The notes below the pieces were generated by a model. It made no database searches, was not told where the DNA came from, and worked only from the letters and a program-made list of their open reading frames with translations. From Lachnospiraceae bacterium (GTDB lineage: Bacteria; Bacillota; Clostridia; Lachnospirales; Lachnospiraceae): 64,000 nt of DNA. The position numbers were made by a program, and so were the translations under genes. Below, piece after piece: positions 6,677 through 61,278 of this stretch; positions within the stretch are counted from its first letter, which is position 1, and the number at the start of each line of letters is the position of its first letter. The DNA is taken from contig SVFI01000002.1 of the NCBI GenBank assembly GCA_015056905.1, forward strand, positions 68,758 to 132,757, written 5' to 3'.

Positions 6677-6679
6677 CTG

Positions 6680-7474: not shown

Positions 7475-7477
7475 ACC

Positions 7478-7933
7478 TTAACCCTCTTTCTGTTCCAAAA
7501 ACTTTTTACGGGTAATAAAATTATAAACCATCACGATACCGGTTGCAAAGAACTTCGCTCCCGCCGTCGCAAGCGTCGGTGAGAGGAAGCTGTTAAGCCA
7601 CAGCCAGTTTTCGTAAATGACATCTATGCAAAGCATAATGATCACTTCGTGAATTCCAAGTCCGATGAGACTGAGAATCGTGAAAATGATAAATTCTTTC
7701 CGCCGATCCATCTCCTCTTTTCGTACAAACACAAACTTCATAGAGAGAAGATAGTTGATAATGACAGATATTGTAAAACCGAAAAAGGCACCAATCAGCG
7801 CTGCCGTCCCTGTCTCCATGCCCGCCTGCGAGCGCAGCAGACCGGAAACCACCATGGTAATGACAAAGTCAATCAAAAAGCAGACAACGCCGACCACACC
7901 GAATTTCATAATTTGTTCCATCAGTTTATTCAT
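7478..7933 (-). CDS. GtrA/GtcA-family small membrane protein
   Basis: It has four helices and the motifs FGVVGVVCFLIDF and KFVF.R...........KF. The ATG at 7933 has an AAGGAG RBS 11 nt upstream. The longer ORF-track start would overlap the upstream gene. Confidence 0.8.
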   Translation of the reverse strand: MNKLMEQIMKFGVVGVVCFLIDFVITMVVSGLLRSQAGMETGTAALIGAFFGFTISVIINYLLSMKFVFVRKEEMDRRKEFIIFTILSLIGLGIHEVIIMLCIDVIYENWLWLNSFLSPTLATAGAKFFATGIVMVYNFITRKKFLEQKEG

Positions 7934-7952
7934 GCCTGATTGTTCTCCTTGT

Positions 7953-9683
7953 TTATACTTCAGGAATTGCTGCAATGAGAGCATCCTTCAAAGCCGCAAG
8001 TTTTTCATCCGCATCTGCAAGGGACTCTCCCTTAATACCCATGTAGAATTTAATCTTCGGCTCTGTTCCGGAAGGACGTGCGCAGCACCATGAATCATTT
8101 TCAAGGTCGAAATACAGCACGTTCGACTTCGGAAGTCCTGTCTCAGACTTCTCACCTGTCACCATATCCGTCACTACATTTACATCGTAGTCACGCACTT
8201 TAAGCACTTTCAGTCCTGCAAGCTCCTTCATCGGATTTGCACGAAGCGCAGCCATAATATCTTTGATTGCCTGAGCTCCTGTCACACCTTTCATCGTGAT
8301 CGTGTGAAGTCCCTCTTTAAAGTATCCGTACTCTTCGTATACTTTAATCATCTGATCCCAAAGCGTAATACCGTTTTTCTTGCAGTATGCAGCCACTTCG
8401 CAGAGGCACATAACCGCAACGATAGCGTCTTTATCTCTTGCATGTGTTCCCGCAAGACATCCGTAGCTTTCTTCCAGACCGAACACATAGTTGTATGTGT
8501 TGTTTTCTTCGAACCACTTAATCTGTTCTCCGATATATTTGAATCCTGTCAGAACTTCCATCTGTGTCACGCCATATGCCTTTGTAATCACATCAGACAT
8601 ATTCGTTGTAACGATTGTTTTTACAAGGGCAGGATTTTCAGGCATTGTTCCTGTCGCTTTCTTCTCGCGGAGAAGATATTCAGCGATAAGCATACCTGAC
8701 ATGTTTCCTGTGAACGGAACATATTCGCCGCTCTTTGTATCAAGCGCATACACACCGAGACGGTCCGCATCCGGGTCTGTTGCAAGAATGATGTCTGCGT
8801 CGACCTCTTTTGCAAGCTTAATCGCAAGCTCAAATGCAGCCGGATCTTCCGGGTTCGGATATGCGAGTGTTGTAAAGTTCGGGTCCGGCATTTCCTGTTC
8901 CGCAACAACATATACGTTCTTAAATCCAAGCTCGGAAAGAATACGTTTTACCGGCACAAGACCTGTTCCGTTGAACGGTGAGTACACAATCTTAAGCTCG
9001 TCAGATACCTCATCAATGATATCCTGGTGTACAATCTGTTTTTTAAGTTCCACCATGTACGCGTCGTCAATTTCTTTTCCGATGATAGTGAGAAGTCCGT
9101 CTGCTTTGGCTTTTTCCTCATCCATCGTTTTAACTGCATGGAAATCTGTTACTGCCTTTACTTCCTCAATAATCTCAACATCCTTCGGCGATGTTACCTG
9201 TGCACCGTCTGCCCAGTATACTTTGTAGCCGTTGTACTCAGGCGGATTGTGGCTGGCAGTCACAACGATACCTGCGGTACATCCAAGCTTACGGACTGCA
9301 AATGAAAGTTCCGGTGTCGGACGAAGCGCGTCGAACAAATATGCTTTAATTCCGTTTGCACACAGGCAGAGAGCAGCTTCTTTTGCAAATTCAGGTGAGA
9401 AACGTCTTGAATCATATGCAATCGCAACACCCATATCAGCGCTTCCCTGTTTTAAAATATAGTTGGCAAGTCCCTGTGTTGCTTTACGTACCGTATAAAA
9501 ATTCATACGGTTTGTACCTGCACCGATGACACCTCTAAGTCCACCGGTACCAAACTCAAGGTCTTTATAAAATCTGTCTTCTACCTCGGCCTCATCATTA
9601 CGAATCGCGAGAAGTTCCTTTTTGGTTTCCTGATCGAAATAATCATCTTCCAACCAGAATTCAAACATTTCTTTGTAGCTCAT
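7953..9683 (-). CDS. pgcA: Alpha-phosphoglucomutase / phosphomannomutase
   Basis: The active-site block is TASHNPPEYNGYKVY and the metal loop is ATDPDADRLG. The length is about 576 aa. The ATG at 9683 has an AGGAGG RBS 10 nt upstream. Confidence 0.9.
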   Translation of the reverse strand: MSYKEMFEFWLEDDYFDQETKKELLAIRNDEAEVEDRFYKDLEFGTGGLRGVIGAGTNRMNFYTVRKATQGLANYILKQGSADMGVAIAYDSRRFSPEFAKEAALCLCANGIKAYLFDALRPTPELSFAVRKLGCTAGIVVTASHNPPEYNGYKVYWADGAQVTSPKDVEIIEEVKAVTDFHAVKTMDEEKAKADGLLTIIGKEIDDAYMVELKKQIVHQDIIDEVSDELKIVYSPFNGTGLVPVKRILSELGFKNVYVVAEQEMPDPNFTTLAYPNPEDPAAFELAIKLAKEVDADIILATDPDADRLGVYALDTKSGEYVPFTGNMSGMLIAEYLLREKKATGTMPENPALVKTIVTTNMSDVITKAYGVTQMEVLTGFKYIGEQIKWFEENNTYNYVFGLEESYGCLAGTHARDKDAIVAVMCLCEVAAYCKKNGITLWDQMIKVYEEYGYFKEGLHTITMKGVTGAQAIKDIMAALRANPMKELAGLKVLKVRDYDVNVVTDMVTGEKSETGLPKSNVLYFDLENDSWCCARPSGTEPKIKFYMGIKGESLADADEKLAALKDALIAAIPEV

Positions 9684-9731
9684 CTTTTCATATCCTCCTA
9701 TTTCTAAACATAATTGCATTGTTTACAGTTT

Positions 9732-15903: not shown

Positions 15904-15932
15904 ATCATACCATATATCACTTGAAATATCAA
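15904..15932 (-). promoter_or_regulatory. Candidate sigma-A promoter upstream of the ABC permease
   Basis: On the minus strand the sequence reads TTGATA (15932-15927) - 17 nt - TGgTATGAT (extended -10, hexamer 15909-15904). It lies in the 90-nt gap between the MBL gene stop and the permease start. Confidence 0.4.
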
Positions 15933-20556: not shown

Positions 20557-22305
20557 TTACCTTTCTCTTGTATACACTGTCACTGCCGGCTCCATCACAG
20601 CCGCATCGACATCAAAGTATGTTTCCATAAATGATTTCATCGGCTCTGTCGTAAGAACCTGCGAAAAATCCGCGCCGTACTCCCTGTCCACAAAGACAAC
20701 CGTAGGAATCCGCTCCGGATTCTTCTCATAGTAATACACCAGTTGTTCTCCGAACGCCGGCGTCGAAATCGTATTACCCGTAGCTATGCCGGATTGTTCC
20801 AACTGACTGTACAAATACATGTCTGCGCCGACATAAAGGAGCATATCCCCATCTTTTACGTACTTGTCAACAAGCCCCGTTTTGGCTTCATACTGAATAT
20901 AGTCAAAATCACCAAGTCGAATCCCTTTCAGGACATCGTGTGTCACTTCATAATACGGTTCGAAAATGTTCTTTTTGCGGGTGGATGTAAAACGCACCAG
21001 GAAGATTCTTGCCACGAGAAGCTGGGACATGATGCACACGAGCAGCAAAATTGCCATCCACGCATAGGAACGTCTTTTCCCGGCGCCGCTTTCCTTCTTT
21101 TGTGTCTCCTTCGGCTCTTCCATGTCACGCGCATACACACGATAAATCTGCCACGTCCCAAGTATTACCCCCGGCATAAAATAGCTCATGGAATACGAGG
21201 TCAGCACATTGGAAGAAACCATAATCGCAAACACACTGACTACCGTCAGCGGAAAGCACACTTCAAAAAATAACGTATCCGTCTTATCCTTCGGAAAGGA
21301 TGCATACGCATACCACTCGACAACAAAAAGTTGCAGTATTACCGGATAAAAAATCATAAAATTCACATCGGAAATTGTGTGAAACTGATAAATCGCATAT
21401 ACTGCCGTCACAAGCAACAACACGCCCAAAAACAACGCATCTGTCTTTTTCTTTTTACAAAATACCGGACGACCCACATGGCAGAGCACAATGAGCGCCA
21501 GCACAAGATACAACATCTCCCAAATACCTTTCAGATGCACAAGAAGATGAGCTGCCATATCCTGGTCATGCGATGCATCCATCAAAATCGCCGATATATT
21601 TTCAAAAATTCCGATTCCACCGCCCGAAATAAGTAGATAACCAACAAACAAAACACCGCAGGCAGCACATATTCCCGCAAAGATTGCTGCGGCCTTTTTG
21701 CCGAAATCATCTTTTCTGAATAACATCCACAGCACCGCGTAGACAAACAACATCACTGCGCTCGGATAGCAGAGTACAATGACACTCATACTGATTCCCG
21801 CCCCAATCATCCATCCTGTTTTCCGCTTTTTTGCAAAGCGAAGCAGGCAAAGCATAAGGCTCATAAAAGCCCAGTAAAACAAAATCGAAAATTCCGGTGA
21901 CTGTATGTGTTTCGGTGTGAAATTAAAGTAGGCAAACGAGAGCGTCATCGCAAGCCACGCAGGCATATGCGACCGAATCGTACGATACAAAAACAGACTG
22001 ACTCTCGTCTGCACAACCAGTCCGCAGATGCGCATAAAAACAAGAGCACCCTCCATCGAACCGGTGATGCCCTTATAACATGCGACCAGCGGCGCATATA
22101 AAACGGCAGACATCTGATGCGGCTCCCACATCTCAAGCAGCATACGGTCGCCCGAAGCGATTCTCACTGCCATCGTAAGTGCGTAAGACTCATCGATATC
22201 TGCGCTAAAATATATGGTTTTCCAAATCCCAATAACAGACAGAACACTAAGCACAACAAACAACATACCTGTCAAAAGGGATTTTCTGCTTTTTTCCTTC
22301 TGCAT
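20557..22305 (-). CDS. Large polytopic GT-C-type (ArnT/PMT-like) glycosyltransferase candidate with a C-terminal soluble domain
   Basis: 582 aa. The first-loop acidic motif is SADIDESYAL, followed by about 11 helices. The soluble C-terminal domain of about 150 aa begins RKKNIFEPYYEV... Confidence 0.6.
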   Translation of the reverse strand: MQKEKSRKSLLTGMLFVVLSVLSVIGIWKTIYFSADIDESYALTMAVRIASGDRMLLEMWEPHQMSAVLYAPLVACYKGITGSMEGALVFMRICGLVVQTRVSLFLYRTIRSHMPAWLAMTLSFAYFNFTPKHIQSPEFSILFYWAFMSLMLCLLRFAKKRKTGWMIGAGISMSVIVLCYPSAVMLFVYAVLWMLFRKDDFGKKAAAIFAGICAACGVLFVGYLLISGGGIGIFENISAILMDASHDQDMAAHLLVHLKGIWEMLYLVLALIVLCHVGRPVFCKKKKTDALFLGVLLLVTAVYAIYQFHTISDVNFMIFYPVILQLFVVEWYAYASFPKDKTDTLFFEVCFPLTVVSVFAIMVSSNVLTSYSMSYFMPGVILGTWQIYRVYARDMEEPKETQKKESGAGKRRSYAWMAILLLVCIMSQLLVARIFLVRFTSTRKKNIFEPYYEVTHDVLKGIRLGDFDYIQYEAKTGLVDKYVKDGDMLLYVGADMYLYSQLEQSGIATGNTISTPAFGEQLVYYYEKNPERIPTVVFVDREYGADFSQVLTTEPMKSFMETYFDVDAAVMEPAVTVYTRER

Positions 22306-32846: not shown

Positions 32847-33662
32847 TTATTTCATGTTTCGCATAGCATCTACGAAATGCTTGTAACCCTCATGCTTTGG
32901 CGCTCTCTCTTCCTCAGGCGGCAGACAGTTGTAATCGCCATAGAGTTTCGTCAGATACTCCTCTTCTTTCCCCGGAATCGGCAAACTATGCCCTTCAAAC
33001 AACACTCTCTGATATGGCACAAGCAGCTCGCGTTTCATCACTTCGTTGCGGTATCCCGCCAGACCAAACAAACTGCATACCTCTTCCGTTCTGTCTGCAT
33101 TATGTGCAGTGATAATCTTACAACTTATCTTGGCATAAACATCGAACATCTTATCCGATGTTGTCTTCACCAGCAGTTTCGATATGACATGCGCCGCCCT
33201 GCCCTTATTTTTGGTCGGATGTCGATACACTGCCATATAATGCACAATACTGAAAAATCTCTGGATTTTCCGCTTCCACGCAGCTTTCGGCAATCCGTCA
33301 ATCGGATGAATATCCAGCTTCGGCGCATCCGCCGCATCATAGTCCCCCTGCGGCAGATAAAGAAGATGTCCGATCGGCGCATCCGCAACCACCTGCCCGA
33401 TAACCGGTGAGTATATGTAGGGGCCAATCTTATTTCCATTCTGTGCCAGCAGCTTTTCCATGCGCTCAAAGTCCGGACGAAGCATCGCCAAATCGATGTC
33501 GTCATCCCACGGAATAAATCCCCCATGTCGAACCGCACCGAGCGCCGAACCGCCGGCCAGAAAATAGCCAAGGCCATTCTCCACACAGAACGCATTAAAT
33601 GCAAGCATCATATTTAACAAATAAGACTGGTATTCCTTTAATCTCTCATCCATTTTCAACAC
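32847..33662 (-). CDS. LicD-family phosphotransferase
   Basis: Motifs are FLAGGSALGAVRHGGFIPWDDDIDLAM and C-terminal YLTKLYGDYNCLPPEE. The start overlaps the YfhO stop by 17 nt. Confidence 0.85.
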   Translation of the reverse strand: MLKMDERLKEYQSYLLNMMLAFNAFCVENGLGYFLAGGSALGAVRHGGFIPWDDDIDLAMLRPDFERMEKLLAQNGNKIGPYIYSPVIGQVVADAPIGHLLYLPQGDYDAADAPKLDIHPIDGLPKAAWKRKIQRFFSIVHYMAVYRHPTKNKGRAAHVISKLLVKTTSDKMFDVYAKISCKIITAHNADRTEEVCSLFGLAGYRNEVMKRELLVPYQRVLFEGHSLPIPGKEEEYLTKLYGDYNCLPPEEERAPKHEGYKHFVDAMRNMK

Positions 33663-36204
33663 GACTCTTTCTTTTTCTCATTCTCAAAACGATGATAAAC
33701 ATTACCCAGCCCAACAGCGAAAGGAGAACACCTATTTTCAGCATCGGTGTCTCATAAGTCAGACAGATTTCGTTTTCCCCCTCTTCCAGCAAAACGCCGC
33801 AATACATGAGGTTGACTTTGCAGAGCATCTGCTCCTTTCCGTTGACTTTCACTTTCCATCCATCACTGTATATCACCGGGAGACACAGCAATCTCTGCTT
33901 CTGTGCCTTCACATCACCGACAATCCTGTTATCCGTCCACGAAGTGACATGCAGAGCTTCTTTCGTGCGTTCTTCAAGCTTTGCCTCGTACCCGGTCAGC
34001 GGCAAATAATATACCTTTATTTCATCCACCTTATATTCCGCTTTTTTTGTGAACGAAACGTGTATCTTACGGACATCCTTCTCCGAGTAACCGACATTCG
34101 CCGCATATGTGTCATTTCCCGAAGAATACGTCGCATGTTTCTTTTGGAAACTCACATTGGACATCACGACATCATTTTCACGCATCTCTATCGTGGCAGC
34201 CGTCACATCCCCCGAGAGAATTTCCAGCCCTTTCCATTCAATGTAAATTTCTCCCGCACCCGGAATGTCGCGGATTTCCATATCAAATCCTGCATTTTCT
34301 TTACTTGTACGATACAGAGTGCCATCTTCACTCACAGAAATCCCGTCCTGCAACGTCAACTCAAAGGAAAGCTCTTCCGACCCGGTATCGATATCCTTCG
34401 CCGTCGTCTCGCCCAATCCTTGCGCCGAGAGCTCACTCGCTGTCGCCTCATCGACTATCGCCGCCTGTAAAACCGCCTCCTGCTTCTGCACCGGCGTCAT
34501 TTTTTCCGCCTCAGACTCCGTGATAAACGTATCATATCCGTAACTGAACGGAACCGCATTTTTATTCTGATATATCTTTCCCTTAACGTGCTCATATCCA
34601 TAAGGAATTCTTGCCTCCTGCCCCTCCGGCACCGTGTAATATTTCACCCCGGCAAGCGTTGTGAGAATCGTTGCATTATCCATTCCCGCGAGGCGGAAGC
34701 TTGTAAACACACCTGTATTTTCAAAAAAGCGATAATACTCCGCCATTTCCCGACTGTATCCGGATGCGTTCGTAACCAGACCGTGATATCCTCCTTCTAC
34801 CCACGCACTTGAAGCCGTCTTCGGTGTTTTGGTATTATCCACCCTGTACAAGGAAGTATCATCTATCCCTGACATCTCCATGTTTGAGCTGTTTGTCATA
34901 ACCCGGTAGCCGCTTCCTTTTTTGTGAAATTCCGTGACAAACCCTTCTCCGTTTTCGGAAAACAGCTGATATCCGCCCATCGCAATCGTAGACAAAAGAC
35001 ATAGATTCCAAAGAACCATACCGACTTTTTTCATTGTCTTTTCAGCGCCGCACCCGAATAATCCACCCAGCCAATCCGTGATATTCTGATATGTACTGCT
35101 CACGGTGATGGCACCGACCAGTACGAGTGCATACAACCAACGGTTATTGGCAACTTTTCCTCCGTTCATAAGACATCCGAACAGAGGAGCGCAAACTCCC
35201 GCAAGACATACCAGCCATCCCCATTTCAGCCTTGTTGCAATCATGTCTTTGCGACGCAACAGCATCAGTACCGACAGAAATACAAACGGGGAAAAGCCGA
35301 TAACTGCCCAATAATCATGCGTTATCGACGGGTGAAACATATTTAAACCAAGTGCCTTGTAATACTCTAAATCATAGTGCAAAAACGACATTACATTGCG
35401 TGCTCCGCCGCTTCTTGACGAACCAAGGAACCCCGCAACGGACGACAAAAAGGTTACACATCCGATGCATAATCCGACCAGATAATACCCAATCAGCCCT
35501 GCAATATACCGCACTGCAACATGCAATTTTTCCTTCCTTGCAAACACATCCGTCAGAACATAAATCGCAAGCAAAATGGAATTCATAAACAAAAAGTAAA
35601 AGCTAAACACTGCCGAATACGCTATCAGAAGCATAAAACGAACCGGACTTTTACCGCATCTGACGCGTTCTGCCGACTCAAAAATAAGCGGCAACAAAAT
35701 CATGGCAACCAAAAACGGGGCCGCCTTTGTCCCTGTAAACAACGTATATCCGCTGAAAACATAAACAAGCGCTCCCGTCACACGCGCCATATAATTTTTT
35801 TCAAATAATGACGTCAGAATCAGAAAACTGATTCCGCACAAATAAAGCCTTACAAACAAAAGCACAGCATAAACCGTCTCCGCTGCCTTTGCGTCAAAAA
35901 ACGCGTAGAAAAGATTCAGCGGCTCCATATACCACTGATAAATATACTGTACAATATCCGTTCCCATTCCGATGGAAAAATCATACCATCCCCACGTCGG
36001 GTCCGTAACGAGACGCTTTACCGCCTCCGCAAACGTCTCCGCCATCGGAATATGGTAAACTACCGCATCCGGATTCCATAAAAGCGAACGTCCTTCCAGC
36101 CAAAAAGGCAGAAAAATTATGAAAGCAAGAACGAAAAAGAAAAGCGAATACCATGCATACGCTTTCCAAGACATATTCTTTTCTCCTTTCATTTCTGTTG
36201 CCAT
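33646..36204 (-). CDS. YfhO-family membrane glycosyltransferase candidate
   Basis: 852 aa with about 13 N-terminal helices, a large extracytoplasmic region and a final C-terminal TM segment (IGVLLSLLGWVMFIIVL). This is YfhO-like topology. The call rests on architecture and context. Confidence 0.7.
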   Translation of the reverse strand: MATEMKGEKNMSWKAYAWYSLFFFVLAFIIFLPFWLEGRSLLWNPDAVVYHIPMAETFAEAVKRLVTDPTWGWYDFSIGMGTDIVQYIYQWYMEPLNLFYAFFDAKAAETVYAVLLFVRLYLCGISFLILTSLFEKNYMARVTGALVYVFSGYTLFTGTKAAPFLVAMILLPLIFESAERVRCGKSPVRFMLLIAYSAVFSFYFLFMNSILLAIYVLTDVFARKEKLHVAVRYIAGLIGYYLVGLCIGCVTFLSSVAGFLGSSRSGGARNVMSFLHYDLEYYKALGLNMFHPSITHDYWAVIGFSPFVFLSVLMLLRRKDMIATRLKWGWLVCLAGVCAPLFGCLMNGGKVANNRWLYALVLVGAITVSSTYQNITDWLGGLFGCGAEKTMKKVGMVLWNLCLLSTIAMGGYQLFSENGEGFVTEFHKKGSGYRVMTNSSNMEMSGIDDTSLYRVDNTKTPKTASSAWVEGGYHGLVTNASGYSREMAEYYRFFENTGVFTSFRLAGMDNATILTTLAGVKYYTVPEGQEARIPYGYEHVKGKIYQNKNAVPFSYGYDTFITESEAEKMTPVQKQEAVLQAAIVDEATASELSAQGLGETTAKDIDTGSEELSFELTLQDGISVSEDGTLYRTSKENAGFDMEIRDIPGAGEIYIEWKGLEILSGDVTAATIEMRENDVVMSNVSFQKKHATYSSGNDTYAANVGYSEKDVRKIHVSFTKKAEYKVDEIKVYYLPLTGYEAKLEERTKEALHVTSWTDNRIVGDVKAQKQRLLCLPVIYSDGWKVKVNGKEQMLCKVNLMYCGVLLEEGENEICLTYETPMLKIGVLLSLLGWVMFIIVLRMRKRKSRVENG

Positions 36205-40822: not shown

Positions 40823-40851
40823 ATTATAACACATTTCTCTGCGCATATCAT
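40823..40851 (-). promoter_or_regulatory. Candidate promoter of the tarI-like-led array
   Basis: On the minus strand the sequence reads ATGATA (40851-40846) - 17 nt - TGtTATAAT (hexamer 40828-40823). Confidence 0.35.
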
Positions 40852-55451: not shown

Positions 55452-56303
55452 ATGAAAAGAAACATCAAAAAACTCACTTCCCTGCTTTTTGCCCTTGTAG
55501 CCACAACGTGCATCGTTCTCTTATCGGATGTCGATGCTCAGGCAGCAAAAACGCACACTTACAAAAGAGATAAAGCCAACGGCGTCTTATACAATAACGC
55601 GGTACGTGTTGATGTCGGCTCCCGTTGGAACGATATCGTTGAAGTTTTGCTTGCTGACAAAGGAGACTACATCTCCTCCGTCAAATCAAACAGTCCGGAT
55701 CTTGTCGCAAAACTCACAAGCCGTTCAAAGGTCAAAACCAATGATAATGTTTTTATATGCTCTGTATATGACAACGGAAAATCCACTTATAAATCCAGCA
55801 ACTTCATTGAATTTTATGCAACAAAAAAAGGAAAATACACGGTAACCGTCACCGTCAAAAACTCTAAAAAGAAAGTAAAAACCAAGAAAAAAATCGCAGT
55901 TTATGCCGGTTATCCTTCTGATCCCGTTGCATCCGTAACCTATGCCGGCAAAAAATACAACGGGCAATCCAACATCAACATCTGCACAAAGAAAGCATCC
56001 GGAAAACTCAAAATTAAAGCCTCGGATACTTACACGATTAAAAAGGTCGAAATCGCAACCACCTTCAACGAGTCAGGGGAGCCGATATTCAAAAAAGTAA
56101 CAAACGGAAAGAAAATCAGCCTTTCCAAAAAAACCAACTATACGGTCACCTGGAATTCATACGACAATTACAACGGCTATACGGAGCTCCGTTATACCAC
56201 CTATGACTATCTCAAGCCGGTGACCCACGTCAGAGTAACCTGCTATGACAAAAAACTTAAAATCAACACATATGCTTATATCTGGCTCATATACACAAAA
56301 TAA
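55452..56303 (+). CDS. Secreted Lys-rich two-domain protein, function unknown (paralogue A)
   Basis: It has a signal peptide (KKLTSLLFALVATTCIVLLSDVDAQA) and a strong RBS. It shares blocks with the next gene: K.NGV.Y.N, S.S..L.AK.TS, KKG.YTV, KKI.VY....PS.P....TYAGK and NGKKISL.K. Confidence 0.7.
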   Translation: MKRNIKKLTSLLFALVATTCIVLLSDVDAQAAKTHTYKRDKANGVLYNNAVRVDVGSRWNDIVEVLLADKGDYISSVKSNSPDLVAKLTSRSKVKTNDNVFICSVYDNGKSTYKSSNFIEFYATKKGKYTVTVTVKNSKKKVKTKKKIAVYAGYPSDPVASVTYAGKKYNGQSNINICTKKASGKLKIKASDTYTIKKVEIATTFNESGEPIFKKVTNGKKISLSKKTNYTVTWNSYDNYNGYTELRYTTYDYLKPVTHVRVTCYDKKLKINTYAYIWLIYTK

Positions 56304-56318
56304 GGGAGGAATGCTATT

Positions 56319-57149
56319 ATGAGAAAAACAAGCCATATCAAATATGTAGCAGCATTGTATCTTTCCGTTTTCTTCCTTCTCTGCTCTGCCTCCATTGTCA
56401 AAGCAGACTATGTCGAAGATAAGACCAACGGTGTCTCCTACACAAATAAAGTATTTATTTCAAAAGGCTATGCCAGTTACCATGCTTATGGCGGCGACAG
56501 CTACATCCAGATTACCTTAAATGATACGACGGACCGTGTTACCAACGTGCGCTCAAGCAGCAAAAATCTTCTTGCCAAGAAGACATCAGAGACCGTTTAT
56601 ACTACAACCGACAACTACTTTGACGAAACACTGGGCCAGAACGTTCAGATAACCAATACATCTTATGAATCGATTTATATCAGCTTTTTTGGTAAGAAAA
56701 AAGGAACCTACACCGTAAAATTTGACGTCGTTGACAAAAACGGTATCAGGAAATGCACCAAGAAAATCAAAGTATATGTTGACAAATGGCCAAGCACTCC
56801 TTCTGCCATCAACTCCATAACTTACGCCGGAAAAGCCTTATTTGAACATGAGCCTTTTACCAAAGTGACAAGCGGAAAGATTAAAGTAAAGCTCAACAAG
56901 GGATACTCTCTTGTCTCCATCAAAGTAAAAAAGATTAACAGCAAGGGAAAATGGAAGACAACGACTGTCAAAAACGGTAAGAAAATATCACTCGCAAAAA
57001 CAGCAAAAGAAACGCAGAGCGACGACTATACTTCATGGACAAACAATCCCCTCTTCCCTGAGACACAGCTTTTGATTACTGTTAAAAACAAGAAAACAAA
57101 AGAAAAATGGACCGAAGAATTCCGTATATATACGATGAACAAGAAATAA
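56319..57149 (+). CDS. Secreted Lys-rich two-domain protein, function unknown (paralogue B)
   Basis: It has a signal peptide (YVAALYLSVFFLLCSASIVKA) and a GGGAGGA RBS. It is collinear with paralogue A and starts 15 nt downstream of it. Confidence 0.7.
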   Translation: MRKTSHIKYVAALYLSVFFLLCSASIVKADYVEDKTNGVSYTNKVFISKGYASYHAYGGDSYIQITLNDTTDRVTNVRSSSKNLLAKKTSETVYTTTDNYFDETLGQNVQITNTSYESIYISFFGKKKGTYTVKFDVVDKNGIRKCTKKIKVYVDKWPSTPSAINSITYAGKALFEHEPFTKVTSGKIKVKLNKGYSLVSIKVKKINSKGKWKTTTVKNGKKISLAKTAKETQSDDYTSWTNNPLFPETQLLITVKNKKTKEKWTEEFRIYTMNKK

Positions 57150-57200
57150 TTTCATCTGAAAATCTGAATCAAAGGCGCTCATTTAGGTCGCCTTATCGAA

Positions 57201-57244
57201 GCGGGGTATACAGCAATATATTTCATGCTGTATACCCCGCTTTT
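57201..57244 (+). terminator. Intrinsic terminator of the paralogue pair
   Basis: The 14-bp stem pairs gcggggtatacagc (57201-57214) with gctgtataccccgc (57227-57240), with a 12-nt loop. It is followed by TTTTcTcgTTTTT. Confidence 0.75.
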
Positions 57245-57328: not shown

Positions 57329-57372
57329 AAAAAACGGGGTACAGGCAAGTCTCTCGACTTTCCTGTACCCCG
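57329..57372 (-). terminator. Intrinsic terminator of the minus-strand kinase-fusion/GT2 cassette
   Basis: On the minus strand, cggggtacagg (57372-57362) pairs with cctgtaccccg (57345-57335), followed by TTTTTT (complement of 57334-57329). It lies 62 nt downstream of the GT2 stop. Confidence 0.7.
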
Positions 57373-57433
57373 ACCAGTCACAAATCCGAATCACCGCAAA
57401 TTATAATCGTAGCAAATTAAAATCACCAAAAAA

Positions 57434-58126
57434 TCAATGATACCGCAAAATACAGTAAATCGCACGGATTCCGTCGCGAACACCGATTTTCTTTCCCTCC
57501 GCGTTCGTACGCGGATTGTAGGAAATCGGCACTTCATGAATACGGATGCGCATATCGGAAATCTTCGCAGTAATCTCCGGCTCAAAACCAAATCGTTTCT
57601 CCTGAATATCTACCGACTGAATCACTTCTCTTGCAAAGCATTTATAACACGTCTCCATATCTGTCAGTTTCTGACGGGTAAAGATATTGGAAAGCCATGT
57701 CAAAAATTTATTCGCCAGACGATTGGCAAGATATCCCTTTGCCTTCTGCTCTTTAAAACGGGAACCGTACACTACTTTGCATTTGCCCGAAAGCACCGGT
57801 CCTGCCACAAGCGGATATTCCATCGGGTCGTACTCCATATCCGCATCCTGAATAATCACCGCATCTCCGGTCGCTGCTGCAAATCCGGTTTTTAAAGCCG
57901 CACCTTTTCCTCCGTTTACCTCATGATAAATAATTTTATCCACGAGCGGACGGATTTCTGCCTCGAGGACCTCTCTCGTCCCATCGGTTGAACAGTCGTC
58001 AACAACGATAATCTCTTTGTGTTCCACCGGCGATTCCTTCACTTTTTTTACGATTTCAAGAATATTGTTCTTTTCATTGTAACAAGGAATCACAATGGAA
58101 AGCACTTTCTTTTCCGAATTGCTCAT
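57434..58126 (-). CDS. DPM1/ArnC/CsbB-type GT2 (polyprenyl-phosphate glycosyltransferase candidate), soluble form
   Basis: Motifs are LSIVIPCYNE, IVVDDCSTDGT, NGGKGAALKTG, IIQDADMEYDP, VYGSR and FGFEPEITAK. The start is ATG 58126, 1 nt after the upstream TGA. Confidence 0.8.
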   Translation of the reverse strand: MSNSEKKVLSIVIPCYNEKNNILEIVKKVKESPVEHKEIIVVDDCSTDGTREVLEAEIRPLVDKIIYHEVNGGKGAALKTGFAAATGDAVIIQDADMEYDPMEYPLVAGPVLSGKCKVVYGSRFKEQKAKGYLANRLANKFLTWLSNIFTRQKLTDMETCYKCFAREVIQSVDIQEKRFGFEPEITAKISDMRIRIHEVPISYNPRTNAEGKKIGVRDGIRAIYCILRYH

Positions 58127-58127
58127 A

Positions 58128-60071
58128 TCAGCTCTCTCTTTCTTTTCCTTTTCCAAACTCACAAAGAGTCTGCCTGTATTTTTCCGGAAGTCCTATGTCA
58201 TACGACTTTCCGTCCATCAAAAGCCCCATCATACCGATACGCTCACGCACCTTGTCAAGGGCTGTGGTCAGCTGGATTTCTCCGCCGCTTGTATGATTCT
58301 CCCTAATATCTGTCTCAAGCACTTCAAATACTTCTTTGGTCAAAATATACTGTCCGAAGACGGCATAAAATTGGTCTCGCGTATTTTTACGGACATTGCC
58401 CAAAAACTCATCCGCATATTCGCAGGAAGGCTTTTCGCAAAAAGCATCCAGTTTTAAAATTGTCTCTTCTTTATTTTCCCACTGCCCATGCATAATTCCG
58501 TAGTGCACCACATCAGAAAGCGGCACGGAATGCATCGACACCACCGGAAGCCCGGTCTTTTCATAGGCATCGATAAGCTGTGACATACAGCTCTTCGGCC
58601 CATAAGACTCATATATCATATCTCCAAGCAGAAGAAGCACCGGCTGTCCTTTGGTAAACTCCCTGCACTGGTAAACTGCGTGACCGAAGCCACGTCTCTC
58701 TTTCTGATATACATAGGTAATCTTTTTACTGATTTTAATGATTTTATCTTCGTAAAAACGTTTCTCCGCCGGAAGTTTACTTCGATGCTCCTCAGAAAGC
58801 GGTGCGAAAAGTGCATCGTACATCGGCTTCTCTTCCTCACCGATGACAAGACAGATTTCTTCAATACCGGATGCATCCAGTTGCTCTAAAAGCACCATAA
58901 TCGCCGGCTTAAACAGTCCGTCCTCATCCAGAATCGGGAAGAAATCCTTCTTGATTCCTTTCGTTGCCGGATAAAGTCTCGTTCCGAAGCCCGCCACCGG
59001 AATAATGGCTTTGGTTACCGCCTGCTGCGGTCTGAGCGTCAGCGGAAATGCTTCCATCCCACGCTCATTATTTAAATAGTCTATCAGTTTGCTCTGCGAC
59101 TGTTCATCCTTTGCAAGGAACTGTACGGTTCCGTCTCCCTGGGAACCAACACCCTTACAGCCGTATACCAATCCTCTTACATTTGCATCATCCAAAACAG
59201 AATGAAGCACCGGAGCTTCCAGTTCCTTGAAACTTGCCGGAGCAACTTTCTTATCAAAATTAACCTGAAACTCATTCATCAACCTGCCAAGCGCTTCATT
59301 GTCGCCCTGCGCGAGGTATTCACACGCCTTGTCGATAAATATCTTATTGTCATGGCCAAGCGCTTCATGCACGGCCCTTTCTTTTTCATTTTGCGCAAAC
59401 GGATAACACTTATTCAAATCGGAAAGAATCTGAACGGTGTCCTTGTGTGATTTCAGGTCCGCAATCACCCAGTAAAGCGTCTTTTTAAACGGCAAAGGCT
59501 TCACACTTACCTCGTTGCCGTCAAACGTCATACGGACCGGTCTGACACCGTAGGCACAAGCCTGATCCAAACGTCCGCAACGGGATGGCGTACGCTGTTC
59601 GCCGATGAATGCAATATTCATCTCGCCCATCGTATTCAACCGAAGACGATACATCTGATTAAACGCGCGTGCCACCAAAACGCAAATCGCCGCGCTGCTG
59701 GAAAGGCCGCTTTTCATCGGAAGATCCATGCGTGTAATCGTAATCTTAAGTCCTCCGACATTGTAGCATTCATTTACGTAGGAGGCAACACCTGCCACAT
59801 AGGAAAAAAAGCCGCCCGCGCTTGCTTCCTCCCTGAGCTTTTCCGAATCCATTTCACAGGAAAAAGAAGCATCATGGTAGCTGGGCAAATCACTCTGCAC
59901 GATAAATTTTTCATTTTTTTCTACTTCAGCATAGATTCCCTGTTCAATTCCGGTTACAATTGCCTGCCCCGGCTCAATTCCGGAATTAATTACTCTGTGC
60001 AACCCTGCCCAGTCACTATGTTCACCGAGAAGACATAATCTCCCCGGTACAAAAAGCTCTATTTTTTCCAT
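58128..60071 (-). CDS. Fusion protein: N-terminal GHMP (galactokinase-like) sugar kinase plus C-terminal GalU-like UDP-sugar pyrophosphorylase
   Basis: GHMP motifs are VPGRLCLLGEHSDW, MKSGLSSSAA and CKGVGSQGDG, within residues ~1-350. The nucleotidyltransferase motifs are IIPVAGFGTRLYPATKGIKKDFFPI, RGFGHAV and LLLLGDM, within residues ~355-647. The RBS is AAGGTGG. Confidence 0.8.
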   Translation of the reverse strand: MEKIELFVPGRLCLLGEHSDWAGLHRVINSGIEPGQAIVTGIEQGIYAEVEKNEKFIVQSDLPSYHDASFSCEMDSEKLREEASAGGFFSYVAGVASYVNECYNVGGLKITITRMDLPMKSGLSSSAAICVLVARAFNQMYRLRLNTMGEMNIAFIGEQRTPSRCGRLDQACAYGVRPVRMTFDGNEVSVKPLPFKKTLYWVIADLKSHKDTVQILSDLNKCYPFAQNEKERAVHEALGHDNKIFIDKACEYLAQGDNEALGRLMNEFQVNFDKKVAPASFKELEAPVLHSVLDDANVRGLVYGCKGVGSQGDGTVQFLAKDEQSQSKLIDYLNNERGMEAFPLTLRPQQAVTKAIIPVAGFGTRLYPATKGIKKDFFPILDEDGLFKPAIMVLLEQLDASGIEEICLVIGEEEKPMYDALFAPLSEEHRSKLPAEKRFYEDKIIKISKKITYVYQKERRGFGHAVYQCREFTKGQPVLLLLGDMIYESYGPKSCMSQLIDAYEKTGLPVVSMHSVPLSDVVHYGIMHGQWENKEETILKLDAFCEKPSCEYADEFLGNVRKNTRDQFYAVFGQYILTKEVFEVLETDIRENHTSGGEIQLTTALDKVRERIGMMGLLMDGKSYDIGLPEKYRQTLCEFGKGKERES

Positions 60072-60134
60072 GTGTTACCACCTTATAGAAATAAGATTCT
60101 CCTTCTCTTTTTTTGCAATCACTACGTGATTTCA

Positions 60135-60163
60135 ATTATAGCATTCGCAAACATAAAACTCAA
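60135..60163 (-). promoter_or_regulatory. Candidate sigma-A promoter with extended -10 driving the kinase-fusion/GT2 cassette
   Basis: On the minus strand the sequence reads TTGAGT (60163-60158) - 17 nt - TGcTATAAT (hexamer 60140-60135). It sits in the 133-nt gap and is about 60 nt upstream of ATG 60071. Confidence 0.5.
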
Positions 60164-60204: not shown

Positions 60205-61278
60205 TCACTTTATATACAAAATATATTTTCCAACTTTCGGTATCTTCGCAAGTAACATCGCAATCAAGAGACTAATCAGCGTAAAAGCATCCCAAGCAAA
60301 ACACATTTGAATCGGGCGCCAAATATCCAGTCCTGTAATCCATGGAAGTATCACAGCTCGCACGACAATGTGAATAAGAAAGATAGCAAATGCATAACGG
60401 GACAGCGCTTCTGTAAACGGGTTGTACGCAATTCTCTCCCGGTCCCTTGCCGTCAGTTCAAAAAGACAAACCGCGCAGACCGGCACAAGCGGGCAATCAT
60501 ACCAAACTGCCATTGCCACACCTTTTCCGTAGGCATAAAACTGCAATGCAACCATTCCCGTAAAGGATATCACCAAAAGTATCCAAAGTACCCACCTCTT
60601 CAGTTTTGCGAAAAATCCTTTTTTGAGGAGATAACCGGCAATCAAATAAATCCCGTACATTCCCCCGCTGAATCCGAGCGAAAACTGATTTACAGGCGGA
60701 ACCTTCGCCAAAAGATTCGCAATCAATGTATACCCCGGAACTCCAAACGCGTATGCAAACAGTACGAGCATAGGAAATTTTAATATCTTAACATCCACCT
60801 TCCGCAATGCCATTGCCACAAAAGGAAGCAGCAGATAAAGTCCCAGAAGCATTGGCATATACCACATGTGATACATACTCGACGGTTCTAAAAAGAGCAT
60901 AGCCCGCACCAAATACCCAAACGGAATCGGCTGATTCTGATACGCGAGAAGAAACAGCTCATAGAACACAATCCAAATTTCAGTACATATCAAAAGACGG
61001 AGCCAATTATGTTTCCAAAAAGATACACACCCTTTGGAATCATACTCCCTATCCAAAAGCAAATATCCGGAAAGCATCAGAAAAAGAGGAACACCTCCCA
61101 CTCTTCCCAGCGTGTACATGGATATAACAAATATGCGGTGTACACCTCCAAGCGTCTGAACGGAAGCAGCATCAAACGAATAGACTCCCTCGACACAGTG
61201 ACACAGAACAACACAGAGAATCGCAAATGCCCTTAGTATATCCAGCCACGGCTGTCTTTTTTGCTTCGCATCTGACAT
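60205..61278 (-). CDS. Acyltransferase family 3 membrane O-acyl(acetyl)transferase
   Basis: The N-terminal block is RQPWLDILRAFAILCVVLCHC. 357 aa with about 10 helices. Confidence 0.85.
   Translation of the reverse strand: MSDAKQKRQPWLDILRAFAILCVVLCHCVEGVYSFDAASVQTLGGVHRIFVISMYTLGRVGGVPLFLMLSGYLLLDREYDSKGCVSFWKHNWLRLLICTEIWIVFYELFLLAYQNQPIPFGYLVRAMLFLEPSSMYHMWYMPMLLGLYLLLPFVAMALRKVDVKILKFPMLVLFAYAFGVPGYTLIANLLAKVPPVNQFSLGFSGGMYGIYLIAGYLLKKGFFAKLKRWVLWILLVISFTGMVALQFYAYGKGVAMAVWYDCPLVPVCAVCLFELTARDRERIAYNPFTEALSRYAFAIFLIHIVVRAVILPWITGLDIWRPIQMCFAWDAFTLISLLIAMLLAKIPKVGKYILYIK

What the first reader, a model, noticed from the sequence alone, without database searches (positions are those of the whole stretch)
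57329..60163. Self-contained 'scavenge-activate-load' cassette: GHMP sugar kinase fused to a UDP-sugar pyrophosphorylase, coupled to a DPM1-like polyprenyl-phosphate glycosyltransferase
Seen in the sequence:
- A single 647-aa polypeptide joins a galactokinase-like GHMP kinase, with all three GHMP motifs, to a GalU-like nucleotidyltransferase (VAGFGTRLYPATK).
- A DPM1/ArnC-type GT2 starts 1 nt after its stop.
- The pair has its own near-consensus extended -10 promoter (60135-60163) and its own terminator (57329-57372).

Established knowledge: Bacteroides Fkp fuses a pyrophosphorylase and a kinase in the opposite order and with a different nucleotide (GDP-fucose salvage). DPM1/CsbB/GtrB-type enzymes make C55-P-sugars that YfhO/GT-C enzymes use outside the cell.

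Inference: the pathway would run from free hexose to hexose-1-P, then UDP-hexose, then C55-P-hexose. This would let the cell decorate its wall polymers with an environmentally scavenged sugar. I do not know of a characterised kinase-to-GalU fusion in this orientation.
Basis: partly seen in the sequence, partly recalled or inferred. Interest (0 to 1): 0.65.

Follow-up and report, generated by a model that had tools for sequence, protein, structure and literature searches.

The report
Kinase-first sugar-to-UDP-sugar fusion with lipid-sugar synthase
A gut Lachnospiraceae cell-wall locus carries one protein that joins a galactokinase-like sugar kinase to a UDP-sugar-forming enzyme, followed by a lipid-phosphate sugar transferase; this probably lets the cell put a free sugar, most likely galactose, onto its wall polymers, and the fusion family is widespread but apparently unstudied.

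Summary
Window 58128-60071(-) encodes a 647-aa GHMP sugar-1-kinase fused to a GalU-like uridylyltransferase. A 230-aa DPM1/ArnC/GtrB-type GT2 (57434-58126) starts 1 nt after its stop. An extended -10 promoter-like site and a strong terminator bracket the pair.

- Both halves keep their catalytic motifs across relatives of 29-93% identity.
- The kinase half is closest in sequence and fold to archaeal galactokinases, the second half to GalU/YngB, and the GT2 to ArnC, DPMS and GtrB.
- In other Firmicutes the same GT2 and fusion sit beside GtrA flippases and YfhO/PMT-type membrane transferases. That is a three-component wall-glycosylation layout.

Three corrections apply.
- The fusion is not rare: at least 582 species genomes encode a relative, including Prevotella.
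- It is adjacent to this GT2 in only 12 of 80 sampled species.
- The pair is not self-sufficient: the flippase and outer transferase lie elsewhere in the window.

The sugar is most likely D-galactose, judged from GalE, Glf and WbbM-like neighbours, a GalE-kinase fusion and a kinase-GT111 fusion. Xylose or another sugar is not excluded. I found no paper describing a natural kinase-first fusion. I rate it a new variant of a known kind, of moderate interest.

The parts
58128..60071 (-). Fusion gene, 647 aa: galactokinase-like GHMP sugar-1-kinase followed by a GalU-like UTP:sugar-1-phosphate uridylyltransferase
   Evidence: ORF. Pfam and NCBIfam domain hits. AlphaFold2 model with mean pLDDT 89.4. 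Foldseek matches each half separately, with no full-length hit in the PDB.
59037..60071 (-). Kinase half (residues 1-345) with GHMP motifs I-III and the galactokinase-type residues R11, E17, H18, D20 and D169
   Evidence: These residues are invariant or nearly invariant in alignment A1. They align one-to-one with P. furiosus galactokinase 1s4e. The best structural matches are Pyrococcus galactokinases 2cz9, 2dei and 1s4e, with target-normalised TM-scores (TMt) of 0.77-0.80.
58152..59024 (-). Uridylyltransferase half (residues 350-640) with AGFGTR, K375, GFGHA, LGD, EKP and D625
   Evidence: TIGR01099 galU scores E 1e-48 but 166 bits, below its 326.8-bit cut-off. The best PDB sequence match is B. 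subtilis YngB at E 5e-33. Foldseek matches GalU/YngB with TMt 0.77-0.87. The motifs are invariant in A1.
57434..58126 (-). 230-aa GT2 without transmembrane helices; putative polyprenyl-phosphate sugar synthase (DPM1/ArnC/GtrB type)
   Evidence: Pfam Glycos_transf_2 E 1.5e-31. NCBIfam AglJ E 8e-34, PpgS E 7e-19, ArnC E 1e-15, all below their cut-offs. PDB sequence matches: PfDPMS 5mlz E 1e-15 over residues 9-228, ArnC E 1e-12. AlphaFold2 model pLDDT 87.2. The top 17 Foldseek hits are ArnC, DPMS and GtrB, with query-normalised TM-scores (TMq) of 0.68-0.79. No hydrophobic segment was detected.
60135..60163 (-). Promoter-like site TTGAGT-17-TGcTATAAT (extended -10) in the 133-nt gap upstream of the fusion
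   Evidence: one of only three sites of this quality in the window, against a shuffle mean of 1.5.
60078..60084 (-). Ribosome-binding site AAGGTGG, 6 nt before the ATG at 60071
   Evidence: Read directly from the sequence.
57329..57372 (-). Intrinsic terminator: long G+C-rich hairpin followed by a T-run, 62 nt after the GT2 stop
   Evidence: region MFE -40.8 kcal/mol, z = -4.4, 0 of 200 shuffles fold as well.
7478..7984 (-). GtrA-family protein, a candidate flippase or membrane partner; distant from the pair and next to another GT2 (6680-7474)
   Evidence: Pfam GtrA_DPMS_TM E 4.6e-17. Weak similarity (E 1e-7) to the GtrA proteins that adjoin the orthologous GT2 in other genomes. Assignment to this pathway is inferred.
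33646..36204 (-). YfhO-family GT-C membrane protein, a candidate extracytoplasmic transferase
   Evidence: Pfam YfhO E 5.7e-75. It is 25% identical over 917 aa (E 3e-79) to the YfhO that sits between the GT2 and the fusion in L037. Assignment to this pathway is inferred.

Best explanation
The two genes form a sugar-activation and lipid-loading module inside a large cell-wall polysaccharide locus of a Lachnospiraceae bacterium.

Proposed steps:
1. The N-terminal GHMP kinase half phosphorylates the anomeric hydroxyl of a free, galacto-configured sugar, most likely D-galactose, using ATP.
2. The C-terminal GalU-like half converts the sugar-1-phosphate and UTP into the UDP-sugar.
3. The translationally coupled 230-aa GT2 transfers the sugar from UDP to undecaprenyl phosphate at the inner face of the membrane. 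It may work with a separately encoded GtrA-type membrane protein.
4. After flipping, a GT-C enzyme adds the sugar to a wall polymer such as rhamnan, teichoic acid or lipoteichoic acid. Candidates in the window are YfhO at 33646-36204 and a PMT_2-like protein at 20557-22305.

Shown: the domain architecture, the conservation of catalytic motifs, fold similarity, and co-location with GtrA and GT-C genes in relatives. Inferred: the identity of the sugar, the use of UTP, the lipid acceptor, the acceptor polymer, and that the free sugar comes from the environment.
For: Architecture and motifs.

Folds:
- The kinase half matches Pyrococcus galactokinases (TMt 0.77-0.80) and the NT half matches GalU/YngB (TMt 0.77-0.87).
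- The GT2 matches ArnC, DPMS and GtrB in its top 17 hits and aligns with PfDPMS over its full length.

Three-component context in relatives that carry the orthologous GT2 (65-89% identity):
- L004/L024: GT2-GtrA-fusion-572-aa protein with 7 predicted TM segments.
- L021: GT-C, GT2, GtrA, PMT_2-like GT-C, Ugd, UXS, fusion.
- L037: GtrA-GT2-YfhO-fusion.
- L043: PMT-like protein, GT2, fusion, GtrA.
- L020/22/23: 455-aa protein with 7-8 predicted TM segments, fusion, GT2.

Module behaviour: DNA homology to relatives covers only 57433-60093. It is higher there (80-84%) than in the flanks (66-74%).

Evidence for galactose:
- The galactokinase residues R11, E17, H18, D20 and D169 are conserved.
- Glucuronokinase has GNPSD in place of GEHSD (PMC2823444).
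- P0225 is a GalE equivalog (375 bits against a cut-off of 262) fused to this kinase family. P0136 is this kinase fused to DUF4422, which is the GT111 galactofuranosyltransferase domain.
- In L039, L048 and L053 the fusion sits directly after Glf (UDP-galactopyranose mutase, 396 bits in L039), with WbbM-like DUF4422+GT8 enzymes upstream. A GalE was confirmed above cut-off in L053, and the L039 copy is GalE-like by sequence.

Feasibility: separate Solitalea GalK and GalU-type enzymes, and engineered fusions of them in both orders, convert a free sugar to its UDP-sugar in vitro (PMC11267548).
Against: - No biochemical data exist for any member that I could find.
- The fusion adjoins this GT2 in only 12 of 80 sampled species. 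In Prevotella it is a stand-alone gene in a housekeeping neighbourhood.
- Of four GT2 orthologues sampled independently, two have no fusion within 7 kb.
- In the window the flippase and GT-C candidates are 22-50 kb away and could belong to other pathways.
- UDP-glucose dehydrogenase lies next to the fusion or GT2 in L008, L029, L036 and L040. UDP-glucuronate decarboxylase (UXS) lies near the fusion in L021, L072 and L039. These neighbours point towards glucuronate or xylose chemistry rather than galactose.
- Neither half reaches the NCBIfam equivalog cut-off for GalK or GalU.
- The galactose-binding signature match is below threshold.
Confidence: 0.5

Rival explanations
1. The pathway logic is the same but the physiological sugar is not galactose. 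It could be D-xylose, L-arabinose or another plant-derived sugar, or the enzyme could be broadly promiscuous like plant UDP-sugar pyrophosphorylase working with its sugar-1-kinases.
For: UXS lies immediately upstream of the fusion in L021 and L072 and close by in L039. Ugd lies beside the fusion or GT2 in six loci. Most hosts are rumen or hindgut xylan degraders such as Prevotella and Lachnospiraceae. A bacterial GalK and a GalU-type enzyme are known to accept xylose (PMC11267548).
Against: The glutamate and histidine of GEHSD are conserved. From my recollection of galactokinase structures, which I did not test here, these contact the C6 hydroxyl, and that argues for a hexose. The GalE, Glf and GT111 links, including the two domain fusions, are more specific than adjacency to Ugd or UXS, which are common in any polysaccharide locus.
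Confidence: 0.25
2. The fusion is a general UDP-sugar supplier for the cytoplasmic Leloir glycosyltransferases of the polysaccharide locus. Its adjacency to the GT2 is operon bookkeeping, and the GT2 draws on a common pool such as UDP-Glc or UDP-GlcNAc.
For: In 68 of 80 species loci the orthologous GT2 is not beside the fusion. The fusion is stand-alone in Prevotella. In L039, L048 and L053 it accompanies cytoplasmic WbbM-like enzymes. GT2 orthologues occur without the fusion.
Against: The 1-nt stop-start junction is kept or overlapped in relatives. The pair moves as a unit between otherwise different loci and in different gene orders. The GT2 is more conserved than its surroundings.
Confidence: 0.15
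3. The kinase half is regulatory or inactive, and the protein is simply a UDP-glucose pyrophosphorylase like B. subtilis YngB, dedicated to wall glycosylation.
For: YngB is the closest solved relative of the NT half, and it serves wall teichoic acid glucosylation next to a GtrA-family gene (PMC7961091 listed).
Against: All kinase catalytic motifs are invariant over relatives of 29-79% identity, including the phosphate-binding loop and the catalytic Arg/Asp pair. That pattern would not be expected for a degenerate domain.
Confidence: 0.05
4. The GT2 is a soluble transferase acting on a small phosphorylated acceptor, like glucosyl-3-phosphoglycerate synthase, or directly on a lipid-linked oligosaccharide, rather than on polyprenyl phosphate.
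For: It has no transmembrane helix. GpgS structures follow the polyprenyl-phosphate transferases in the Foldseek list with similar TM-scores.
Against: The best sequence and structural matches along the whole length are DPMS, ArnC and GtrB. GtrA, which is homologous to the DPMS membrane domain, and GT-C genes adjoin it repeatedly. Human DPM1 and mycobacterial PpgS also lack transmembrane helices; this point is from my own knowledge.
Confidence: 0.05

Closest known systems
Bacteroides fragilis Fkp (L-fucokinase/GDP-fucose pyrophosphorylase) and zebrafish GKUP (glucuronokinase/putative UDP-GlcA pyrophosphorylase)
   Same: A single polypeptide joins a GHMP sugar-1-kinase to an NDP-sugar pyrophosphorylase, giving salvage of a free sugar for surface glycans (PMC11982464, PMC3938481).
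   Different: The domain order is reversed: those enzymes have the pyrophosphorylase at the N-terminus and the kinase at the C-terminus. The kinase subfamily differs: here GEHSD of the galactokinase type, against GNPSD in glucuronokinase. Neither was detected as a sequence relative: no Fkp chain passed E 0.01 in the PDB search with the kinase half.
Solitalea canadensis GalK plus GalU-type uridyltransferase (ScGalK/ScGPUT) and their engineered chimeras
   Same: A galactokinase followed by a GalU-type enzyme converts a free sugar to its UDP-sugar in two steps. Engineered kinase-first fusions are active (PMC11267548).
   Different: Those are separate natural genes that were fused artificially. 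The authors state that no natural bifunctional xylose-to-UDP-xylose enzyme had been described.
Three-component wall glycosylation systems: CsbB/GtrB/GtlA-type GT2, GtcA/GtrA flippase and YfhO or another GT-C; mycobacterial PpgS-Rv3632
   Same: A DPM1-like GT2 makes a C55-P-sugar, and GtrA and GT-C partners complete the transfer. Relatives of this GT2 have exactly that gene neighbourhood.
   Different: This GT2 lacks the C-terminal transmembrane helices of CsbB, GtrB and ArnC. It resembles the split DPMS/PpgS arrangement, with GtrA as a separate protein. Known systems take their UDP-sugar from general metabolism, whereas here a dedicated kinase/uridylyltransferase is attached.
Bacillus subtilis YngB (UGPase in the yngABC operon)
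   Same: It is the closest solved relative of the NT half (E 5e-33, about 33% identity). It is a second UGPase dedicated to glycosylation of wall polymers (PMC7961091).
   Different: YngB has no kinase domain and uses Glc-1-P from central metabolism. The NT half here has an insertion of about 12 residues after the EKP motif relative to YngB.

Membership tests
GHMP kinase superfamily, galactokinase-type sugar-1-kinases | Motifs I (PGR...GEHxD), II (PxGSGLSSSAA-like phosphate loop) and III (KxxGxGxGG-like) | tested here: met
   All three motifs are present and invariant across 22 relatives. Pfam GHMP_kinases_N scores E 1.5e-12.
GHMP kinase superfamily, galactokinase-type sugar-1-kinases | Catalytic Arg and Asp, and the Glu/His/Asp of the galactose-binding signature | tested here: met
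   R11, E17, H18, D20 and D169 align with R11, E17, H18, D20 and D151 of P. furiosus GalK and are conserved. The role of each residue is from my own knowledge.
Canonical galactokinase GalK (NCBIfam equivalog TIGR00131) | Score above the curated cut-off | tested here: not met
   55.8 bits against a cut-off of 226.65. Mevalonate kinase scores similarly at 62.5 bits. The protein is not an orthologue of GalK. Its fold is nearest to archaeal GalK.
GalU/GtaB UTP-glucose-1-phosphate uridylyltransferase (TIGR01099) | Score above the curated cut-off | tested here: not met
   166.2 bits against a cut-off of 326.8. It is a divergent GalU-like domain.
GalU/GtaB UTP-glucose-1-phosphate uridylyltransferase (TIGR01099) | GxGTR nucleotide loop, catalytic Lys, EKP motif, Mg-binding Asp, and the Rossmann-like fold | tested here: met
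   Motifs are invariant. Foldseek gives TMt 0.77-0.87 to GalU/YngB.
Fkp/GKUP-type bifunctional salvage enzymes | Pyrophosphorylase N-terminal, GHMP kinase C-terminal | tested here: not met
   The order here is kinase (1-345) then NT (350-640). Fkp and GKUP have the opposite order.
Polyprenyl-phosphate glycosyltransferases (GT2: DPM1, ArnC, GtrB, CsbB) | GT-A catalytic domain with the DxD motif, and similarity extending through the juxtamembrane helices | tested here: met
   D94-A-D96 is invariant. The protein aligns with PfDPMS residues 25-248 and ArnC residues 8-211. The top 17 structural hits are ArnC, DPMS and GtrB.
Polyprenyl-phosphate glycosyltransferases (GT2: DPM1, ArnC, GtrB, CsbB) | C-terminal transmembrane helices, as in ArnC, GtrB and CsbB | tested here: not met
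   The protein is 230 aa with no hydrophobic segment. A GtrA/DPMS_TM protein is encoded separately and adjacent in L004, L021, L024, L037, L041, L043 and L092.
Polyprenyl-phosphate glycosyltransferases (GT2: DPM1, ArnC, GtrB, CsbB) | Formation of C55-P-sugar | not testable with these tools
   Requires an enzyme assay.
Three-component extracytoplasmic glycosylation system | GT2, flippase and GT-C encoded together | tested here: inconclusive
   The feature is met in relatives. In the window the GtrA (7478-7984), YfhO (33646-36204) and PMT_2-like (20557-22305) genes exist but are not adjacent.

The most novel reading that the evidence does not exclude
This is a natural, kinase-first, single-polypeptide enzyme that turns a free dietary sugar (galactose, possibly also xylose) directly into its UDP-sugar. 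It is spread through hundreds of rumen and gut species of Lachnospiraceae, Oscillospiraceae and Prevotella. In part of the Firmicutes it is hard-wired to a split DPM1-like synthase, so that diet-derived sugar goes straight onto wall polymers outside the cell. It would be a UDP-sugar counterpart of Bacteroides Fkp, and a ready-made handle for metabolic labelling of gut Firmicutes glycans and for one-pot UDP-sugar synthesis.
Probability: 0.4. Interest if true: 0.6.

Novelty: new variant of a known kind. Interest (0 to 1): 0.5.

Why it matters
If the function holds, gut and rumen bacteria have a UDP-sugar salvage enzyme analogous to Fkp. Fkp underlies surface fucosylation and metabolic glycan labelling in Bacteroides.

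Possible consequences:
- It would explain how abundant commensals tie wall or capsule decoration to the sugars available in the gut.
- It would give a route to label Lachnospiraceae and Prevotella surface glycans with sugar analogues.
- It would provide a natural one-enzyme catalyst for UDP-galactose or UDP-xylose synthesis, which chemists have recently tried to build by artificial fusion (PMC11267548).
- It would add a dedicated donor-supply step to the known three-component wall-glycosylation scheme.

Tried and rejected
- Literature. Nine full-text searches found no description of a natural kinase-first GHMP/GalU fusion. The GalAK paper, which I wanted in order to check the role of the GEH glutamate, is not held, so that argument rests on memory.
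- Source names. Eight NCBI/ENA clusters of the fusion carry no name. JGI calls two members 'UTP-glucose-1-phosphate uridylyltransferase/galactokinase' or '/mevalonate kinase'.
- Glucuronokinase reading. I considered it because Ugd and UXS are neighbours and because zebrafish GKUP exists. I judged it less likely because glucuronokinase has GNPSD where this family has invariant GEHSD.
- Mevalonate or homoserine kinase reading. I rejected it because of the galactokinase-type N-terminal motif, the fusion to a sugar nucleotidyltransferase, and the polysaccharide context.
- A flippase or GT-C partner adjacent to the pair in the window. I looked for one and found none.
- The 303-aa gene upstream of a fusion-less GT2 (L094). 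I tested it as a possible GalE; it is RmlD.
- Pocket-level comparison with galactose-bound GalK. This was not possible because model coordinates and residue-level structural alignments are not returned.
- BLAST links between the different large membrane partners (c21, c61, c161, c314 and others) and the window. None was found except for YfhO.


Full report
**1. What is in the sequence**

On the minus strand, the ORF at 58128-60071 encodes 647 aa.
- Residues 1-345 are a GHMP kinase. Pfam GHMP_kinases_N scores E 1.5e-12. The galactokinase galactose-binding signature and GHMP_kinases_C match only below threshold.
- Residues 350-640 are a nucleotidyltransferase. Pfam NTP_transferase scores E 8.5e-22. 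NCBIfam galU scores E 1e-48, but at 166 bits it is well below the 326.8-bit equivalog cut-off.

A 230-aa family-2 glycosyltransferase (57434-58126) begins with an ATG 1 nt after the fusion's stop codon. Homologue N-termini support that start rather than the upstream GTG.

A 133-nt gap upstream holds TTGAGT-17-TGcTATAAT (60163-60135) and an AAGGTGG ribosome-binding site. Only three sites of this quality exist in the whole window on both strands, against a shuffle mean of 1.5.

Sixty-two nucleotides after the GT2 stop there is a long G+C-rich hairpin with a T-run (57372-57329). The fold has z = -4.4.

One caveat is that nothing terminates transcription coming from the acyltransferase gene upstream (60205-61278).

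**2. Surroundings**

The window is one long cell-envelope region of a Lachnospiraceae-like genome. GC content is 42-49% and nearly all genes are on the minus strand. It contains:
- RmlA, RmlB and RmlC
- two TagF-like glycerophosphotransferases
- an IspD-like cytidylyltransferase
- two ABC exporters, one with a Wzt C-terminal domain
- LicD
- a priming Bac_transf enzyme
- a Wzy_C protein
- CDP-glucose 4,6-dehydratase
- an Acyl_transf_3 protein
- an autolysin with GBS_Bsp repeats
- a YfhO protein (33646-36204)
- a PMT_2-like membrane protein (20557-22305)
- two DUF6077 membrane proteins
- a second small GT2 next to a GtrA protein (6680-7984)

However, no flippase or GT-C gene is adjacent to it.

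**3. Are both halves of the fusion functional?**

I aligned 22 full-length relatives of 29-79% identity. The following are invariant or nearly so.

Kinase half:
- PGR
- GEHSDW
- the phosphate loop LPxKxGLSSSAA
- CGxxDQ, which holds the catalytic Asp
- KGxGSxGxG

Transferase half:
- AGxGTR
- K375
- GFGHA
- LGD
- EKP
- D625

An AlphaFold2 model has mean pLDDT 89.4. Foldseek against the PDB matches the C-terminal half to bacterial GalU/YngB UGPases, with target-normalised TM-scores (TMt) of 0.77-0.87. It matches the N-terminal half first to Pyrococcus galactokinases (2cz9, 2dei, 1s4e; TMt 0.77-0.80) and then to a mevalonate kinase. No solved structure covers both halves.

**4. The GT2**

- Its best sequence matches among solved structures are Pyrococcus dolichyl-phosphate mannose synthase (E 1e-15, over residues 9-228) and ArnC (E 1e-12).
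- Its model (pLDDT 87.2) has ArnC, DPMS and GtrB as its top 17 structural neighbours. Glucosyl-3-phosphoglycerate synthases come next.
- It has no transmembrane segment.
- In Pfam the membrane domain of DPMS and GtrA form one family (GtrA_DPMS_TM).
- In seven other loci a GtrA gene directly adjoins the orthologous GT2.

This looks like a split DPMS, as in mycobacterial PpgS/Rv3632. That comparison is from my own knowledge.

**5. Distribution**

The fusion family is large.
- More than 120 clusters at 90% identity share at least 63% identity with the window protein.
- In a library of 50%-identity representatives, full-length fusions reach down to about 30-40% identity. Stand-alone kinase (about 345 aa) and transferase (about 290 aa) relatives also exist.
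- The 80 best loci come from Lachnospiraceae, Oscillospiraceae, Ruminococcaceae, one spirochaete and about 40 Prevotella/Bacteroidales, mostly rumen and hindgut MAGs.

The closest relatives found are a Lachnospiraceae MAG from roe-deer colon (90%) and GCA_054268795.1 (94%).

**6. Is the coupling to the GT2 conserved?**

Only partly.
- By tblastn, an orthologous GT2 (65-89% identity) adjoins the fusion in 12 of the 80 species loci, all Firmicutes.
- Five more loci have a distant small GT2 (26-31% identity) directly downstream.
- No Prevotella locus has one. There the fusion is a stand-alone gene between fmt, rpe and a sigma factor on one side and rmlA on the other.

Starting from the GT2 instead:
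- The 98% orthologue has the fusion upstream, as in the window.
- A 75% orthologue lies convergent with the fusion, next to DUF7657 and DUF6020 proteins.
- A 78% orthologue is paired with GtrA and has no fusion within 7 kb.
- A 74% orthologue stands alone.

Where fusion and GT2 co-occur, the gene order varies (fusion-GT2, GT2-GtrA-fusion, GT2 convergent with fusion). Large proteins with 7-12 predicted transmembrane segments are almost always adjacent. One of these is a clear YfhO (E 4e-90). Two match PMT or PMT_2 (E 1e-7 and 6e-10). The others have no Pfam match. The window's own YfhO is homologous to the L037 one (25% identity over 917 aa).

DNA similarity between the window and its relatives covers just the two genes (57433-60093, 80-84%). 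It is lower (66-74%) or absent in the flanks. In L001 and L089 the gene upstream is different and overlaps the fusion's start.

The pair is therefore a mobile two-gene module. It is not a self-contained system, and its private promoter is specific to this genome.

**7. Which sugar?**

This cannot be settled by computation, but the evidence leans towards D-galactose.
- (a) The kinase keeps the galactokinase-type residues R11, E17, H18, D20 and D169. They align one-to-one with P. furiosus GalK. Glucuronokinase has GNPSD at that place (peptide VGFLGNPSDVYFGR, PMC2823444).
- (b) The nearest folds are galactokinases.
- (c) Two other domain fusions involve this kinase family. P0225 joins a bona fide GalE (TIGR01179, 375 bits, cut-off 262) to it. 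P0136 joins it to DUF4422. DUF4422 is the GT111 galactofuranosyltransferase domain of WbbM (PMC12269835).
- (d) In L039, L048 and L053 the fusion sits directly after UDP-galactopyranose mutase (TIGR00031, 396 bits in L039), with WbbM-like DUF4422+GT8 enzymes upstream. A GalE was confirmed above cut-off in L053, and the L039 copy is GalE-like by sequence.

Against this, UDP-glucose dehydrogenase adjoins the fusion or GT2 in six loci, and UDP-glucuronate decarboxylase lies near the fusion in three. In addition, a bacterial GalK and GalU-type pair is known to accept xylose (PMC11267548).

I put galactose at roughly 40-45%. Another sugar, or broad specificity, is about 25-30%.

**8. Mechanism proposed**

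Free sugar is converted to sugar-1-phosphate (kinase half, ATP), then to the UDP-sugar (transferase half, UTP). The GT2, probably with a GtrA-type partner, then forms C55-P-sugar. This is flipped and transferred by a GT-C enzyme (YfhO or PMT-like) to a wall polymer.

Shown: architecture, motif conservation, folds and recurrent neighbourhoods. Inferred: every chemical step and the environmental origin of the sugar. The free sugar could equally arise from intracellular hydrolysis of galactosides.

**9. Comparison with what is known**

- Fkp and zebrafish GKUP follow the same logic but have the opposite domain order, different kinase subfamilies and, for Fkp, GDP in place of UDP.
- A 2024 paper that engineered GalK/GalU-type chimeras states that natural salvage fusions carry the pyrophosphorylase at the N-terminus. 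It also states that no natural bifunctional xylose-to-UDP-xylose enzyme had been described.
- B. subtilis YngB is the nearest solved relative of the transferase half and is also tied to wall glycosylation, but it has no kinase (PMC7961091).
- Three-component glycosylation (CsbB/GtlA/GtrB plus GtcA plus YfhO or another GT-C) is well established. Attaching a dedicated donor-supply enzyme to it is the new element.

**10. Verdict**

Its 'self-contained cassette' framing is overstated and its rarity was overestimated.

It is a new variant of a known kind: a kinase-first UDP-sugar salvage fusion, uncharacterised as far as I could find. In some Firmicutes it is coupled to a split DPM1-like synthase. 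Interest is moderate (0.5). It is testable with simple enzymology and could be useful for glycan labelling and UDP-sugar synthesis, but it is mechanistically unsurprising.

Noticed in passing
window 5909-7984 (-): A second putative polyprenyl-phosphate sugar unit: an LPG_synthase_TM protein (255 aa), a GT2 (264 aa) and a GtrA protein (168 aa) in a row. A phosphoglucomutase and a double-GT2 protein follow upstream (7953-11732).
   Followed up: partly
window 1089-4071 (-): DUF4956, a VTC domain protein and a CotH kinase form a trio at the edge of the cell-wall region. An APH-like kinase lies next to them (4458-5912).
   Followed up: no
window 30341-32818 (-): A family-3 glycoside hydrolase whose Pfam C-terminal domain (residues 44-323) precedes the N-terminal domain (605-819), i.e. 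a permuted domain order.
   Followed up: no
window 55452-57149 (+): Two paralogous proteins of about 280 aa with a signal peptide, convergent with the pair. The same two genes lie next to the fusion-GT2 pair in L001, L002, L003 and L089. No informative Pfam match was found.
   Followed up: partly
proteins P0181, P0200, P0240, P0250: Relatives of the kinase half (42-48% identity) are fused to RING finger, Ysc84 or SET domains. This suggests eukaryotic gene models, perhaps from gut protists or fungi, or assembly artefacts.
   Followed up: no
loci L016, L017, L018: Another conserved neighbourhood: the fusion, a distant small GT2 (26-31% identity to the window's), a GT2 with 3 predicted transmembrane segments, and, in L016 and L018 (L017 ends before it), a 487-aa protein that looks like a B12-binding radical-SAM enzyme.
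   Followed up: no
Prevotella loci L042-L088, e.g. L062 10007-11941: In Prevotella the fusion occupies a fixed chromosomal position between fmt, rpe and a sigma-70-family gene on one side and rmlA on the other. It has no glycosyltransferase beside it, so it behaves like a housekeeping gene.
   Followed up: partly
window 40823-40851 and 15904-15932 (-): These are the only other two sites in the window with at least 10/12 promoter matches plus an extended -10 TG. Both are also on the minus strand at gene starts (the IspD-like gene and the ABC-2 permease gene). The first overlaps the annotated ATG at 40846, so that gene may start further downstream.
   Followed up: no
window 57195-57240: A second perfect hairpin (GGGGTATACAGC...GCTGTATACCCC) lies between the convergent genes. 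It is probably the terminator of the plus-strand gene that ends at 57149.
   Followed up: no
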